From UHGV virus genome UHGV-1979868: 17,516 nucleotides of DNA; one strand, written 5' to 3'. The notes under the pieces are model-generated. The model ran no database searches. It worked only from the letters and a program-made list of their open reading frames with translations, and was not told where the DNA came from. A program made the position numbers and the translations under genes. This stretch comes from a virus. Shown piece after piece: positions 2,268 through 13,303 of this stretch (position 1 is its first letter; the number at the start of each line of letters is the position of its first letter).

Positions 2268-2663
2268 TTACACTGGTGTGTTCAGCAAATCGTTAACGGC
2301 ATCAGATGCCGGGTTACCTGCAGCCAGCGGTGCCGGTGCCCCCTGCATCAGACGATCCAGCGCAGTGTCACTGCGCGCCTGTGCACTCTGTGGTGCTGCG
2401 GCCAGAATACGGCGGGCCGTTTCCACGGTCATACCGGGGGTTTCGGCCAGCACGCGCGCCTGTTCTTCGCGTCCGTGAGCCTCCTCACAGTTGAGGATCC
2501 CCATAATGCGACTGTTTTCTGCCGCAACCGCTGCGGTGATCTGCGCGTTCACGTCCGGCTGCGCCGCGCTGGCGTTCTCGCCCTCCGTCGCTTGCACCAC
2601 GCCAGTAACGTCAGCCTGCGAAGCAGTGGCTGAAACAGTTGTTGATTGAGTCTCTTTGGTCAT
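2268..2663 (-). CDS. Nu3: Scaffolding protein Nu3, nested in-frame in the 3' third of C
   Basis: Internal in-frame ATG at 2663-2661 preceded by AGGAGG; the product MTKETQSTTVSATASQ...DLLNTPV (131 aa) shares the C stop. This is the known lambda C/Nu3 nested arrangement. Confidence 0.7.
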   Translation of the reverse strand: MTKETQSTTVSATASQADVTGVVQATEGENASAAQPDVNAQITAAVAAENSRIMGILNCEEAHGREEQARVLAETPGMTVETARRILAAAPQSAQARSDTALDRLMQGAPAPLAAGNPASDAVNDLLNTPV

Positions 2664-3567
2664 TCGCCCTCCTGAGAGACGGGATTTACGTGCATCCAGT
2701 GCATCACGCATGACGGTGATCGCATCGGTACTGTTAACAAGTTCATCAGCCAGTCCGGCATCAATGGCCTCCTGACCGCTGTACACTGCAGCCTCGGTAT
2801 CCAGCACAGCCTGCACGGACAGGCCGGTATATGCCGACACCTTCTGCGCAAACATCCGGCGGGTTGCATCCATCCGGGACTGCAGTGTTTCCCGGACGTC
2901 ATCTGGTAGATGGCTGTAGGGGTTGCCATCCACCTTATGGCTGCCGCTGTAAATCAGCGTGATTTCCACGCCCTGTTTCTCCAGCGCAGCGCCGTAATTA
3001 CTGTGAGCCATCATGACGCCGATGGAGCCTGTCCGGGCGGTCTGCGTGACCAGACGCCGGGAGGCGGCGCTGGCAAGCAGCTGACCTGCACTGCAGTTCA
3101 TGTCGTTGGCCAGCGCCCATACCGGTTTTATGTCACGCACACGGGCAATGATGTCAGCGCAGTCAAATGCCCCCGCCACCATCCCGCCTGGCGTGTCCAT
3201 ATCGAGCAGAATGCCGTCCACCATCGGGTCGCTGGCAGCCTGTTGCAGACGGGCGATAATGCTGTTGTAACCGGTCATCCCCGAATACGGCTGCAGCGCC
3301 CGCGTCCGGCTGACCAGCGTGCCGGACACCGGCAGCACGGCGATGCCGTTCATGACCTGATAACTGCGGGCCTGTCGTGGCCCGTCATCATTACCGGATA
3401 ACGCCAGCGTCTCGGGTGCCTCTCCGGCAGTCAGGCTGTCACCGGACACCGCATCCGTCAGGCGGCTGATCCCCAGCTGGCCTGCAAGCGCACAAAAGAA
3501 AACCCGCGCATAGGCGGGTTCAAGCATCAGCGGCTCATTAAAAGCCATACTGGCAATATGCGGGAGA

Positions 3568-9696: not shown

Positions 9697-9902
9697 TTCA
9701 TTTTCACTTTTTTAAATCCAACGACAGACGGCTGGCATTTAAGTATTGTGAAATATTATCAAATGTAATCATCATTGATTTACAAAAGATACATTTTGCC
9801 CCGAAAGGATTCATGTCAGAAACATCAAAAGATGATGTTCTATACTGGGAACCATGACAACACGGGCATCTAAAGTGAATATGGTTTGTAATATTGTCTA
9901 CC

Positions 9903-10115
9903 TCAAAGCGCCACTACATGAACAGCGGCAGGACCTTTAGGTCCGTTCTCAATACCAAATTCAACTTCCTGATTCTCAGTTAATGTTTTGAAATCGTTGC
10001 TCTGAATTGCTGAGAAATGGACAAACACATCTTTGCTGCCATCTTTCGGCGTGATGAAACCAAAACCTTTTTCAGGGTTAAACCATTTCACTAAACCAGT
10101 CATTTTGTTAGACAT
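9903..10115 (-). CDS. cspI: Cold-shock protein CspI (CspA family)
   Basis: 70-aa [73 protein letters not shown] with RNP1/RNP2 motifs; matches CspI as I recall it. ATG at 10115 with SD, and a long 5' leader region upstream, typical of csp genes. Confidence 0.9.
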
Positions 10116-10478
10116 AATTATTACCTTTTGAAGAAATTAGCCCTTGGGCAGAATGGTCCGAAAAAAAATATCAGAGAGAAAAACCAACAAGGAAATCTCA
10201 AGAGGTACAAATAATAAAATTATAACAATGACTGCTTCAGATAAATTTGTAACAAACCAGAACACCATTAACGCATGATTAACCACCCATAGCAAGGATT
10301 ACTTTTGTAAAGAAAAACACAGCAATGAAAGAATAGCTTTATTTATTAATAATAACGTGTCATTCTGATTAAGACCTTTTATCTTACCCTTAAGATTTCA
10401 GGAATTTTGGCTCATGGAAGAGTCCTTTTTATTTAAATTTTACATTCCGCGATGTAAATGTTCCGATTTAATATTACC

Positions 10479-11502
<1,024 letters not shown>

Positions 11503-11506
<4 letters not shown>

Positions 11507-11814
11507 ATATATTTATGATGAGGACGCTCGTGCTTATTGGCAGGATTTTCAATCTTAAAGGAGTACTGATGCTGCAGATAAGACTCAACTTTTTCTGACA
11601 ATTTTTCTGCTACTTCCAGGAAGACTTGCCGGACGCTCCTTCTGGCTGCTGCCTCATAAAACTCCAGCGCAGCTCCTTCAACACGGTCCATGGCGACATC
11701 CAGGTCAAAAATTTCACCGTCAAAGCGTTCTTTGTCCTGTAAGGCTACAGTTACCGTAACTTTATTCTCAAAATTACGGACTCCTTTCACAACCAGTTCA
11801 TAGTCTTGAGTCAT
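11503..11814 (-). CDS. ydfR: Uncharacterised acidic protein (DUF1327-like, 103 aa) inserted between holin and endolysin
   Basis: ORF MTQDYELVVKGVRNFENKVTVTVALQDKERFDGEIFDLDVAMDRVEGAALEFYEAAARRSV...; ATG at 11814 with AGAGGAGA 8 nt upstream, 4 nt after the essQ stop. Its stop overlaps the rrrQ start (ATGA at 11503-11506). Symbol and family are from positional memory. Confidence 0.7.
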
Positions 11815-11818
11815 TGGA

Positions 11819-12034
11819 TTACTCTCCTCTCGCAGCCTTACGCCTGTCTTCTTTAATCTTGAAATAAAGATTTGTCAGATACGTCAGCAGGCCAAAAACC
11901 AGGCTACCCAGCACACCGATTGCAGCCCACTGTGACGGAGTTACTTTATCGAGTAACTGCAATGCCCAGAAACCAGCATTACCCGCCGATGTGCCATAGG
12001 CAACACCTGTTGTTAACTTATCCATTGATTTCAT
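11819..12034 (-). CDS. essQ: Pinholin / antiholin, phage-21 S-type, 71 aa with dual-start motif
   Basis: The track ORF extends to 12109, but the phage-21 S-like sequence begins [71 protein letters not shown] at the ATG at 12034. Met1-Lys2-Ser3-Met4 gives the two starts. It has two TM segments and a charged C-terminus. Confidence 0.85.
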
Positions 12035-12253
12035 ATCCTCACCCCGATGTACACGGATGGTGCAATATGTTTGAAAAGATCGGAGTCTACGGGGTAGTTT
12101 TGACAGCACACGTTGTTCTCAACGGCGCTAAAAAAACATACACATTAAAAATGTGGGTAATTATTTTGAAAGAAAGTCATATATAAAATAATAATACGAG
12201 AAATGTTTTCATATTTAGTGTACTGTATACGGCCATTTATACAGGAAAAGCCT

Positions 12254-12424
12254 ATGTCAGAACGTAAAAACTCAAAATCACGCCGTAATTATCTCGTTAA
12301 ATGTTCCTGCCCAAACTGCACCCAAGAGTCAGAACACAGTTTTTCAAGAGTACAAAAAGGTGCCCTTTTGATCTGCCCTCATTGCAACAAAGTATTCCAG
12401 ACAAATCTTAAAGCTGTAGCCTGA
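12254..12424 (+). CDS. Small zinc-ribbon protein, 56 aa (two CxxC pairs)
   Basis: Track ORF 12203..12424; the ATG at 12254 has AGGAAA 5 nt upstream. Product MSERKNSKSRRNYLVKCSCPNCTQESEHSFSRVQKGALLICPHCNKVFQTNLKAVA with CxCPNC ... CPHC. It is divergent from essQ. It may correspond to a small putative zinc-binding Qin protein of K-12, but I cannot confirm the name. Confidence 0.5.
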   Translation: MSERKNSKSRRNYLVKCSCPNCTQESEHSFSRVQKGALLICPHCNKVFQTNLKAVA

Positions 12425-12480: not shown

Positions 12481-12506
12481 AATAAAAAACCCGCCTGAGC
12501 GGGTTT
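12481..12506 (-). terminator. Rho-independent terminator
   Basis: Minus-strand AAACCCGCTCAGGCGGGTTTTTTATT: GC-rich hairpin plus T-tract, about 280 nt downstream of cspB and just beyond the 3' end of the plus-strand zinc-ribbon ORF. Confidence 0.6.
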
Positions 12507-12787
12507 GAGATTGTGGTGCTTTTTGTGGGAGTCATCCACTTACGCACTTTGTTTTGCCATGCCAGCAGTTAGCTTCTGCTGTAAAACTATTCATGCAGCA
12601 AACCTGCACTTCACCACAATGGTTAGCATACTTTTCCTGATTAAGATTTTGCCAAATATGCTAGCCATTGTTTCATGTATTGGACCTCCTTACTTTTTAT
12701 TAAAGAGATCCAATATTCACTACTCTGTCCGTATCTCTACTCAGGCATCAGCCTTCTTCGTTATCGTATACAGACGAGCGATGAATT

Positions 12788-13003
12788 TTAATCAGTAATG
12801 ATGACATTTGCTGCTGCAGGACCTTTAGCACCACTCTCTATAGAGAAGGTAACCTTTTGACCTTCAAATAAGGTTCGATAATTATCATTCTGAATCGCAG
12901 AAAAATGCACAAACACATCTTTACTACCATCAACAGGAGAAATAAAGCCGAAACCTTTATCAGCGTTAAACCATTTTACTAAACCAGTCATTTTATTTGA
13001 CAT
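12788..13003 (-). CDS. cspB: Cold-shock protein CspB (CspA family)
   Basis: 71-aa [74 protein letters not shown], matching CspB as I recall it; ATG at 13003 with TAAGGA 7 nt upstream. Confidence 0.9.
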
Positions 13004-13303
13004 TCTACATTCCTTAACTTGAGCCTTTCGGCATAAATGGTTTGCATAACAGAAACGACTTCGTACTTAATTGGAGAGACTCAAAGAAGGAATAAGTGAA
13101 TAACACCTGAAATGAGAACTGCTTTAGTAAACTACTTCGTATATCGTCTGTTCTTCAAACCGACGCAATCATTAACGCATAGTTGAACATATGAAGCAAT
13201 GTTTATTTTAGACATCCAGCCATCTTCAACCCCATCAAAAAACTATAGCTTTCTTCAGGAACGTGTGTATAGTGCGCCAAGTTATCAGTATTAAGGAATT
13301 TTT

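What the first reader, a model, noticed from the sequence alone, without database searches (positions are those of the whole stretch)
11503..11814. Unknown acidic protein inserted inside the lysis cassette between pinholin and SAR endolysin
In the phage-21 lysis cassette as I know it, holin is followed directly by endolysin. Here a 103-aa soluble acidic protein with no TM segment sits between them. It starts 4 nt after the pinholin stop with a strong SD, and its stop overlaps the endolysin start (ATGA). It is therefore co-translated with the lysis proteins at the time of lysis. It could modulate lysis timing or be a moron that uses late expression.
Basis: partly seen in the sequence, partly recalled or inferred. 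Interest (0 to 1): 0.5.

Follow-up and report, generated by a model that had tools for sequence, protein, structure and literature searches.

The report
ydfR: accessory gene in lysis cassette
The small gene between the holin and the endolysin is ydfR, an already catalogued E. coli prophage gene of unknown function (family DUF1327); it is an optional passenger in this slot, not a core part of the lysis machinery.

Summary
A 103-codon ORF (11503-11814, minus strand) starts 4 nt after the pinholin stop, behind a GAGGAGAG Shine-Dalgarno, and ends in an ATGA overlap with the SAR-endolysin start. Phage 21 itself has no gene there.

The gene is not unknown as a sequence. It is ydfR of the Qin-type lambdoid prophage, 102/103 identical to E. 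coli K-12 b1555 and a member of Pfam DUF1327 (E 1e-53). ydfR-like DNA is in 66% of complete E. coli genomes, and the identical protein is in the sequenced phage Tritos.

It is a precise one-gene insertion. Homologous cassettes (VT2-Sakai, other Stx2a phages) join S directly to R. 100 phage records carry DUF1327 and 438 carry an S21-type holin.

Distant DUF1327 members sit in tail-tip gene clusters, so the domain goes with late expression, not with lysis.

The model shows a 76-residue three-strand-plus-helix domain and a disordered, variable tail, with no significant structural relative.

The only functional data are a 2026 study: K-12 YdfR residues 1-72 bind the catalytic half of RNase E, and the protein co-purifies with RNA.

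Best reading: a late-expressed accessory protein acting on host RNA decay. This mechanism is inferred. No effect on lysis timing has been tested. Novelty is low.

The parts
11503..11814 (-). ydfR coding sequence (103 aa plus stop), family DUF1327 / YdfR
   Evidence: ORF list. PF07041 E 1.1e-53, 179.9 bits against a cut-off of 25. Annotated as ydfR in 100%-identical E. coli genomes. 102/103 identical to K-12 b1555.
11587..11814 (-). Conserved DUF1327 domain, aa 1-76: strands 5-14, 18-27 and 34-43, then a helix from residue 50
   Evidence: Alignments A1-A4. AlphaFold2 model of aa 1-80 with pLDDT 87.8. This is the part shared by five PHROGs and the part reported to bind RNase E (aa 1-72, PMC13232886).
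11503..11586 (-). Variable C-terminal tail (aa 77-103, basic, His-rich, predicted disordered) plus the stop codon
   Evidence: pLDDT below 50 for residues 76-103. Tail pI 8.45. Tails differ between family members of 72 to 287 aa.
11822..11829 (-). Shine-Dalgarno GAGGAGAG for ydfR, inside the last holin codons. The same element serves the endolysin in cassettes that lack ydfR.
   Evidence: Sequence read directly. Junction comparison with VT2-Sakai, H-19B and phage 21.
11503..11506 (-). ATGA overlap: ydfR stop TGA and endolysin start ATG (translational coupling). No Shine-Dalgarno of its own lies upstream of the endolysin ATG.
   Evidence: Sequence read directly.
11819..12034 (-). S21-type pinholin (essD/essQ type), 71 aa, dual start M1/M4
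   Evidence: PF04971 E 4.4e-34. phrog_9876 and phrog_20, holin. 83% identical to phage 21 S.
10973..11506 (-). SAR-type endolysin (rrrQ), 177 aa
   Evidence: PF00959 E 1e-23. phrog_7, endolysin. N-terminal Gly/Ala-rich segment 9-27 with KD mean 1.67. 89-90% identical to the R proteins of VT2-Sakai and H-19B, but only 33% to phage 21 R.
10479..10976 (-). i-spanin Rz (rzpQ). Its start overlaps the endolysin stop.
   Evidence: PF10721 E 7.7e-39. Annotation in IAI1 and K-12.
10529..10783 (-). Embedded o-spanin Rz1 (rzoQ), a lipoprotein
   Evidence: K-12 annotation transferred by offset. The translation has a lipobox, LTSC.
12487..12506 (-). Terminator-like hairpin after cspB, upstream of the lysis cassette. 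It is the only terminator-like site on the late (minus) strand between cspB and Rz.
   Evidence: Consensus scan.

Best explanation
The ORF is ydfR, a member of the small, mostly Escherichia/Shigella phage family DUF1327.

Shown here:
- It is a precise one-gene insertion at the holin-endolysin junction of a pinholin/SAR-endolysin cassette in a Qin/Tritos-type lambdoid prophage.
- It has no transcription signals of its own.
- It takes over the Shine-Dalgarno that serves the endolysin in cassettes without it.
- Its stop overlaps the endolysin start.

Inferred from this: it is made from the Q-dependent late transcript together with the lysis proteins, and ribosomes finishing ydfR probably reinitiate on the endolysin.

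It is not a core lysis protein. Homologous cassettes lack it, and distant relatives of its domain sit in tail-tip gene clusters. The common denominator is late expression.

The protein is cytoplasmic. It has a conserved 76-residue three-strand-plus-helix domain and a disordered, highly variable tail.

Most likely action (inferred from one published study of the 99%-identical K-12 protein, not tested here): the domain binds the catalytic N-terminal half of RNase E, and also RNase G and/or RNA. It would thereby adjust RNA decay or processing late in infection, as an optional fitness factor and not as a lysis clock.
For: Identity:
- PF07041 E 1e-53.
- 100% DNA identity to the essD-ydfR-rrrQ-rzpQ locus of E. 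coli genomes.
- One residue different from K-12 YdfR.
- The identical protein is in phage Tritos, between 'Lysis protein S' and the endolysin.

Optional insertion:
- Phage 21 goes from S directly to R.
- VT2-Sakai and many Stx2a phages do the same. The alignment shows a clean 312-nt indel with TAA + 4 nt + ATG kept.
- 438 phage records have an S21-type holin and 100 have DUF1327.

Fixed 5' junction and variable 3' side, in the 88 loci carrying a relative.

No promoter or terminator inside the cassette.

Purifying selection: dN/dS of 0.2-0.45 between the more diverged alleles; some close pairs are higher.

Not tied to lysis: the stand-alone 72-94 aa members P0268 (Sodalis ligni), P0297 and P0269 lie before gpL or gpJ in tail clusters.

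Fold:
- Three strands and a helix, pLDDT 87.8.

RNase E and RNA (PMC13232886):
- YdfR 1-72 was recovered three times in a two-hybrid screen.
- The full-length protein is positive with Rne 1-597.
- Rne 1-598 co-elutes with Strep-YdfR.
- DNase-resistant nucleic acid co-purifies with it.
- Overexpression is not toxic.
Against: - The RNase E link rests on one study. The co-purification was done in vivo without nuclease treatment, so RNA could bridge the two proteins.
- Full-length YdfR gave a two-hybrid signal with only one Rne construct.
- Overexpression changed few transcripts.
- The authors themselves say a contaminant might explain the RNA.
- No sequence or significant fold relationship to any known RNase E regulator or RNA-binding family was found.
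- The invariant residues (Y5, Y53, E54) are aromatic or acidic, which suggests a protein interface more than an RNA interface.
- The strict position directly after the holin in Escherichia phages is still compatible with a lysis-related role.
Confidence: 0.45

Rival explanations
1. Cytoplasmic lysis-timing modulator. The acidic domain would bind the basic cytoplasmic C-terminal tail of the pinholin (…[13 protein letters not shown]), or otherwise tune holin triggering or endolysin release, in the manner of a soluble antiholin.
For: - In every Escherichia locus examined, the gene lies between the holin (of two holin families) and the endolysin. In nearly all of them it starts exactly 4 nt after the holin stop; in L110 a gap and in L112 a 217-aa gene intervene.
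- It is translationally coupled to both lysis genes.
- The domain has pI 4.7, opposite a strongly basic holin tail.
Against: - Phage 21, the reference system, and the 933W/VT2-Sakai type lack it.
- Distant members lie in tail clusters with no holin nearby.
- All five matching PHROGs are labelled 'unknown function', not 'lysis'.
- No homology to any known lysis regulator was found.
Confidence: 0.2
2. Orphaned half of a two-gene mobile module. In many relatives, DUF1327 is followed at once by a convergent small gene on the lysogen-sense strand. DUF1327 might be the late-expressed regulator or antidote of that partner. The Qin copy has lost the partner and is then a remnant with reduced or changed function.
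For: - Convergent ORFs of 58-104 aa directly follow DUF1327 in L012, L092, L096, L098, L101, L102, L104, L105 (PhiR12_1), L106 (Stx2 phage 86), L107 (Evi), L110 and L112. This holds in both lysis and tail contexts.
- Two partner families occur in sequenced phages only next to DUF1327, 9 of 9 records.
Against: - The partners fall into at least six families with no detectable similarity to each other, so the link is positional only.
- Most DUF1327 copies (Qin type, H-19B/Stx1a type) have no partner and are still under purifying selection.
- No defence or toxin-antitoxin model matches either gene.
Confidence: 0.15
3. The protein is dispensable, and only the ORF matters. It would be a selfish or neutral insertion, kept in this cassette because endolysin translation now depends on ribosomes that terminate at the ATGA overlap.
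For: - The endolysin has no Shine-Dalgarno of its own in this arrangement. The S-proximal one now serves ydfR.
- Overexpressing the protein has almost no phenotype.
- The C-terminal part is freely exchangeable.
Against: - dN/dS on the domain is 0.2-0.45 between the more diverged alleles, although some close pairs approach 1.
- The domain is kept in very different genomic contexts and down to 25-30% identity.
- H-19B-type copies end about 50 nt before the endolysin, so coupling is not general.
Confidence: 0.1
4. Late-expressed counter-defence or host-takeover factor against a target other than RNase E, as a small single-domain protein inhibitor.
For: - It is a small, acidic, phage-restricted, optional gene with a variable tail.
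- It lies next to accessory islands (ORF6N/Arc/HicB-like genes) in tail clusters.
Against: - Anti-defence genes are usually early genes, and this one is late.
- No PADLOC or other database match.
- The fold hits are not significant.
Confidence: 0.1

Closest known systems
E. coli K-12 YdfR (b1555, UniProt P76160), Qin cryptic prophage; Pfam DUF1327 / NCBI 'YdfR family protein'
   Same: 102/103 residues identical, and the gene order essQ-ydfR-rrrQ-rzpQ between cspB and cspI is the same. Full-length Pfam match.
   Different: Only I103 against L103. The window's prophage still has its head genes and matches the sequenced phage Tritos, whereas K-12 Qin is defective.
Phage 21 lysis cassette (S21 pinholin, R21 SAR endolysin, Rz/Rz1)
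   Same: The holin is 83% identical with the same dual start, and the order holin, endolysin, spanins is the same.
   Different: Phage 21 has no gene between S and R. Its endolysin is only 33% identical to the one here, which is of the H-19B / VT2-Sakai type.
H-19B and Stx1a/Stx2c-phage ORF between S and R (unannotated in AF034975)
   Same: A DUF1327 gene starts 4 nt after the S stop, in the same slot.
   Different: 47% identity in the domain, a different 114-aa tail, and an end about 50 nt before R with no overlap.
Cytoplasmic antiholin-type regulators (T4 RIII; P1 LydB). Recalled from memory, not tested here.
   Same: Small soluble proteins that act on lysis timing from the cytoplasm. P1 lydB follows its holin gene.
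   Different: No sequence or fold relationship was found. DUF1327 also occurs away from holins. No lysis phenotype is known.
Protein modulators of RNase E (host RapZ, RraA/RraB; phage T4 Srd, T7 gp0.7, phiKZ Dip). The phage examples are recalled from memory.
   Same: YdfR is reported to bind the RNase E N-terminal catalytic half, as RapZ does (PMC13232886). It is phage-encoded, like Srd, gp0.7 and Dip.
   Different: No homology to any of them was detected. No effect on RNase E activity has been shown. Overexpression altered few transcripts.
Double-stranded RNA-binding domain (dsRBD)
   Different: The first helix of the dsRBD is missing. No dsrm match turned up in the Pfam scan of 28 members. 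The scores are below significance, and the K/R pattern is not invariant.

Membership tests
Pfam DUF1327 / YdfR family | Match to PF07041 above the gathering score | tested here: met
   179.9 bits against a cut-off of 25, E 1.1e-53, covering profile positions 1-93 of 93.
Pfam DUF1327 / YdfR family | Conserved N-terminal domain of about 75 aa, with Y5 and Y53-E54 conserved | tested here: met
   Alignments A1-A4. M1, Y53 and E54 are invariant across 28 members down to about 25% identity, and Y5 is nearly invariant. All 28 members hit PF07041.
Pfam DUF1327 / YdfR family | Encoded in the late region of a lambdoid (pro)phage of enterobacteria | tested here: met
   The window is a Qin/Tritos-type prophage. 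Family hits in species-representative genomes were Escherichia, Shigella and two probably mis-binned MAGs; that pattern scan finds close relatives only. Other searches also found members attributed to Sodalis ligni and Salmonella enterica. Only 89 hits were found among 1.84 billion representatives.
Phage 21-type pinholin/SAR-endolysin lysis cassette (as a core component) | Present in all functional cassettes of this type | tested here: not met
   Absent from phage 21, VT2-Sakai and most Stx2a phages. 100 records carry DUF1327 and 438 carry an S21-type holin.
Phage 21-type pinholin/SAR-endolysin lysis cassette (as a core component) | Membrane or periplasmic location, as for holin, SAR endolysin and spanins | tested here: not met
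   No hydrophobic segment (highest KD mean 0.67) and no signal sequence.
Soluble antiholin / lysis regulator (T4 RIII, P1 LydB type) | Constant genetic association with a holin | tested here: not met
   Met in Escherichia phages, but distant members lie in tail-tip clusters.
Soluble antiholin / lysis regulator (T4 RIII, P1 LydB type) | Changes lysis timing when removed or overproduced | not testable with these tools
   This needs phage genetics. No published test was found.
Moron (autonomous accessory transcription unit in a lambdoid late region) | Presence/absence polymorphism with clean boundaries between conserved genes | tested here: met
   A 312-nt indel lies exactly between the S-R spacer and the R start codon.
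Moron (autonomous accessory transcription unit in a lambdoid late region) | Own promoter and terminator, with expression from the prophage | tested here: not met
   A 4-nt spacer upstream and an ATGA overlap downstream. No promoter- or terminator-like site between holin and Rz. Almost no ydfR reads in growing K-12 (PMC13232886).
RNase E-binding regulators | Direct physical binding to RNase E | not testable with these tools
   Reported for K-12 YdfR by two-hybrid and in vivo co-purification. No nuclease-treated in vitro test was done for YdfR.
RNase E-binding regulators | Measurable change in RNase E-dependent RNA decay | not tested
   The published overexpression RNA-seq found only a few changes. 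Nothing has been done in a phage infection.
dsRBD fold | alpha-beta-beta-beta-alpha topology and a match to the dsrm profile | tested here: not met

The most novel reading that the evidence does not exclude
DUF1327 may be the conserved, late-strand half of a small mobile module that inserts into late operons, either at the holin-endolysin junction or in the tail-tip cluster. Its other half would be a hypervariable, convergently transcribed small gene. The conserved domain, with its dsRBD-like core and its RNase E/G and RNA binding, could act on the sense/antisense RNA made by this convergent arrangement, or on late phage mRNAs in general. That would make it a new kind of phage-encoded RNA-decay modulator. 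The Qin copy in this window would be a partner-less derivative.
Probability: 0.1. Interest if true: 0.6.

Novelty: already known. Interest (0 to 1): 0.3.

Why it matters
If ydfR changes RNase E activity or RNA stability late in infection, it would be a temperate-phage counterpart of the RNase E modulators known from virulent phages. It would also give a function to a gene present in about two thirds of complete E. coli genomes and in many Shiga-toxin phages, just downstream of the toxin genes.

If instead it tunes pinholin timing, it would add a soluble regulator to the best-studied pinholin system.

For now it is a well-catalogued gene of unknown function in a known position. The practical gain of this check is threefold:
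- the gene is optional for lysis;
- the domain is not tied to lysis cassettes;
- an envelope phenotype reported for its Keio deletion may be a polar effect on the overlapping endolysin gene.

Tried and rejected
Searches that gave nothing for ydfR:
- NCBIfam: no model for ydfR.
- PDB sequence search with the family profile: nothing below E 0.28.
- Foldseek against BFVD: best E 0.011, all hits uncharacterised.
- The AlphaFold database library was not available.
- PADLOC: no defence model for YdfR, its long variants or the convergent partners.
- Pfam at E up to 10 on 28 members: only DUF1327. The weak ROF and CENP-U hits (E about 0.15) were judged to be noise.
- Rfam: nothing inside the ORF.
- Promoter and terminator scan: no internal signals, and the counts are not above the shuffled expectation.

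Literature:
- 'DUF1327' occurs in one genomics paper only.
- 'ydfR' gives one relevant paper.
- Searches on Stx-phage lysis cassettes, essQ/rrrQ and b1555 found no study of the S-R slot gene.

Envelope-integrity screen (PMC3879167):
- It lists ydfR only in supplementary tables.
- I do not take it as evidence of function. A resistance cassette that replaces ydfR sits directly upstream of, and overlaps, the SAR-endolysin start, so a polar effect is a simpler explanation. This is my inference.

Rejected idea: that the Veillonella and Bacillota MAG hits show a wider host range. They are 84-100% identical to E. coli loci and are most likely mis-binned contigs.

Full report
**Observation**

The minus strand of the window carries, in order:
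- an S21-type holin (11819-12034, 71 aa, dual start MKSM);
- a 103-codon ORF (11503-11814);
- a lysozyme with an N-terminal Gly/Ala-rich SAR-like segment (10973-11506);
- Rz (10479-10976) with an embedded Rz1.

- The holin stop TAA is followed by TCCA and then the ATG.
- GAGGAGAG lies at -15..-8 from that ATG.
- The ORF's TGA overlaps the endolysin ATG as ATGA.

The product has no hydrophobic segment. Its highest 19-residue Kyte-Doolittle mean is 0.67, against 1.72 for the holin. It is only mildly acidic: pI is 5.56 overall, 4.7 for residues 1-76 and 8.45 for the tail.

ORF length alone is weak evidence, because about 11 open frames of this size are expected in shuffled sequence. Homology and conservation settle the question (see below).

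In the complete genome OL657228, S21 (39866-40081) is followed directly by R21 (40081-40578).

**What it is**

The ORF is ydfR.
- It matches Pfam DUF1327 over the whole profile (E 1.1e-53).
- It matches five PHROGs, all of unknown function. They share its first ~76-99 residues (~76-79 in the three more distant ones) and differ in the C-terminal part.
- The 2.1-kb region is 100% identical to many E. coli chromosomes, for example IAI1. There it is annotated essD - ydfR ('YdfR family protein') - rrrQ - rzpQ, between cspB and cspI.
- It has the same order as the Qin prophage of K-12.
- The protein differs from K-12 YdfR (b1555, P76160) only at the last residue.
- The identical protein is encoded between 'Lysis protein S' and the endolysin of the sequenced phage Tritos.
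- ydfR-like DNA is present in 3572 of 5426 complete E. coli genomes, and nearly full-length in 1789 of them.

So the gene is known and annotated. Only its function is unknown.

**An optional, precisely bounded insertion**

Cassettes with the same holin and the same endolysin type occur both with and without the gene.
- VT2-Sakai and many Stx2a phages go from S to R with a 4-nt spacer.
- H-19B (where the ORF is unannotated), Stx1a and Stx2c phages, YYZ-2008, mEp460, Tritos and others carry a DUF1327 gene.
- Aligning the window with VT2-Sakai shows one clean indel that is exactly the ydfR ORF. The TAA + 4 nt + ATG geometry, and the Shine-Dalgarno inside the holin's last codons, are kept.
- In the phage collection, 438 records have an S21-type holin and 100 have DUF1327.

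In the 88 related loci I fetched that carry a relative, the 5' junction is invariant and the 3' side varies. The holin stop is always followed by 4 nt and then the ATG.
- Family members range from 72 to 287 aa through different C-terminal tails.
- The allele sequences suggest recombination within the domain.

The slot can also hold more or different genes.
- A 217-aa gene lies ahead of DUF1327 in L112.
- A holin of a different family (PF16080) precedes it in L110.

Between the more diverged alleles, dN/dS over codons 1-72 is 0.2-0.45; some closely related pairs are higher. This indicates a protein under moderate constraint.

No promoter-like or terminator-like site lies inside the cassette. 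The nearest terminator-like hairpin on the late strand is upstream of the holin, after cspB.

In this arrangement the endolysin has no Shine-Dalgarno of its own. Its translation therefore probably depends on ribosomes that terminate at the ATGA overlap. This is an inference from the sequence.

**The family is small and not tied to lysis**

- A profile search that reads every one of 1.84 billion cluster representatives found only 89 proteins at E <= 0.001.
- Among one genome per species, only Escherichia, Shigella and two probably mis-binned MAGs were hit. This pattern-based scan finds close relatives only.
- Members attributed to Sodalis ligni and Salmonella enterica turned up in other searches.

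The weakest hits include stand-alone proteins of 72-94 aa that consist of the domain alone. All of them still match DUF1327.

Three of these could be placed on long contigs, and none is in a lysis cassette.
- In Sodalis ligni the gene lies just before gpL.
- In two metagenomic prophages it lies just before gpJ.
- In two of the three it sits beside an accessory island with ORF6N-, Arc- and HicB-like genes.

What the Escherichia copies and these copies share is a position inside the late operon. They do not share a link with a holin.

**Structure**

With a shallow alignment, the full-length model had pLDDT 67 and a disordered tail at residues 76-103. With the diverse alignment, residues 1-80 reached pLDDT 87.8 and pTM 0.73. 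The topology is strands 5-14, 18-27 and 34-43, then a helix at 50-79.

- BFVD gave nothing significant.
- The family profile has no sequence relative in PDB.

I treat the dsRBD resemblance as a lead only.
- The first dsRBD helix is missing.
- No dsrm match appeared in the Pfam scan of 28 members.
- The K/R-rich start of the helix is not invariant.
- The invariant residues are Y53 and E54, with Y5 nearly so.

**Function: what is published**

The only relevant study is Göpel et al., RNA Biol 2026 (PMC13232886).
- A two-hybrid library screen with RNase G as bait recovered the first 72 codons of K-12 ydfR three times.
- The fragment interacted with RNase G and more strongly with RNase E.
- The full-length protein was positive only with Rne 1-597.
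- Rne 1-598 co-eluted with Strep-YdfR from cell extracts.
- DNase-resistant nucleic acid co-purified with the protein.
- Overexpression did not slow growth and changed few transcripts.
- ydfR was essentially silent in growing K-12.

The interacting part is exactly the conserved domain. However, the co-purification was not nuclease-controlled for YdfR, and no effect on RNase E activity was shown.

The same paper cites a Keio-collection screen for envelope defects. In that screen ydfR appears only in supplementary lists. The deletion cassette would sit on the overlapping start of a SAR endolysin, so I regard a polar effect as the simpler explanation. This is my inference.

**Most likely mechanism and rivals**

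The best-supported reading has three parts.
- Shown: ydfR is an optional late-operon passenger gene.
- Inferred: it is co-translated with the lysis proteins and passes ribosomes on to the endolysin.
- Inferred from one paper: its domain acts in the cytoplasm on RNase E or G and/or RNA.

The rivals are these.
- A soluble lysis-timing regulator that binds the basic holin tail. For: the strict post-holin position in Escherichia. Against: its absence from phage 21 and the tail-cluster relatives.
- An orphaned half of a two-gene module (next section).
- A dispensable protein whose ORF serves only translational coupling. Against: purifying selection and the conservation of the domain in other contexts.
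- A counter-defence factor. There is no positive evidence for this.

**A pattern outside the window**

In many relatives, the DUF1327 gene is followed within 10-30 nt, or with a short overlap, by a convergent ORF of 58-104 aa that encodes a soluble protein.
- This is seen in lysis cassettes: phages Evi, PhiR12_1 and Stx2 phage 86, and loci L012, L092, L101, L110 and L112.
- It is also seen in tail clusters and short contigs: L096, L098, L102 and L104.
- The partners fall into at least six families with no detectable similarity to each other.
- Two of these families occur in sequenced phages only next to DUF1327, in 9 of 9 records.
- None of them matches Pfam or PADLOC models.

The window's copy has no such partner. 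This recurring arrangement is unexplained, and it is the basis of the most novel reading I cannot exclude.

**Verdict**

The gene and its family are already known and annotated, and the position is typical for the family in Escherichia phages. Interest is modest.

Noticed in passing
L107 1744-2040(-), L105 1958-2218(-), L106 2317-2631(-), L012 3500-3766(-), L092 3674-3955(-), L096 4243-4524(-), L098 4269-4445(-), L101 3244-3540(-), L102 1340-1639(-), L104 335-616(-), L110 2809-3048(-), L112 2913-3188(-): In many relatives the DUF1327 gene is followed directly by a convergent small ORF (58-104 aa, soluble, no Pfam or PADLOC match). This holds in lysis cassettes and in tail-tip clusters. The partners form at least six unrelated sequence families. 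Two of them (phrog_2572, phrog_25324) occur in sequenced phages only next to DUF1327 (9/9 records). The window's copy lacks a partner.
   Followed up: partly
window 12772-13164 (-) and 9876-10261 (-): Two full-length cspA-type thermoregulator RNAs (Rfam RF01766, 158.8 and 112.8 bits) sit in the 5' regions of cspB and cspI. They bracket the lysis cassette on the late strand. Together with cspF, ynfQ and ynfU, this makes a cluster of cold-shock genes around the lysis genes. PMC13232886 mentions cold induction of the ydfR cluster.
   Followed up: no
window 10973-11506 (-) compared with L005 40081-40578: The endolysin here is only 33% identical to phage 21 R21, although the holin is 83% identical to S21. 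It belongs to the 177-aa H-19B / VT2-Sakai type (89-90% identity). The cassette is therefore 'phage 21-like' in its holin only.
   Followed up: partly
L003 (H-19B, AF034975) 2501-2845 (+): The GenBank record of phage H-19B leaves a 114-codon DUF1327 ORF between S and R unannotated. Many Stx1a and Stx2c phage records likewise have no feature under the match.
   Followed up: yes
L094 1716-3398 and L098 424-3841: In non-Escherichia prophages the DUF1327 gene lies at the end of an accessory island inserted among the tail-tip genes (between gpM and gpL, or before gpJ). The island carries ORF6N-, Arc-, HicB-like and FtsK-gamma-domain genes.
   Followed up: no
L006 (Veillonella parvula MAG) and L009 (Bacillota MAG): Contigs binned to Veillonella and to an unnamed Bacillota MAG carry the E. 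coli Qin-type lysis cassette at 84-100% protein identity. This is most likely mis-binning of Escherichia phage contigs.
   Followed up: no
L112 1801-2454 (+): Some E. coli prophages carry a further 217-aa gene with no Pfam hit between the S21-type holin and the DUF1327 gene. The holin-endolysin slot can therefore hold up to three extra genes.
   Followed up: no
window 12203-12424 (+): ynfU/ydfK-type zinc-ribbon gene (PF23499, E 6e-31) on the opposite strand, between cspB and the holin, with a promoter-like site at 12166-12195 (+). The longest ORF (73 aa) starts upstream of the annotated 56-aa ynfU.
   Followed up: no
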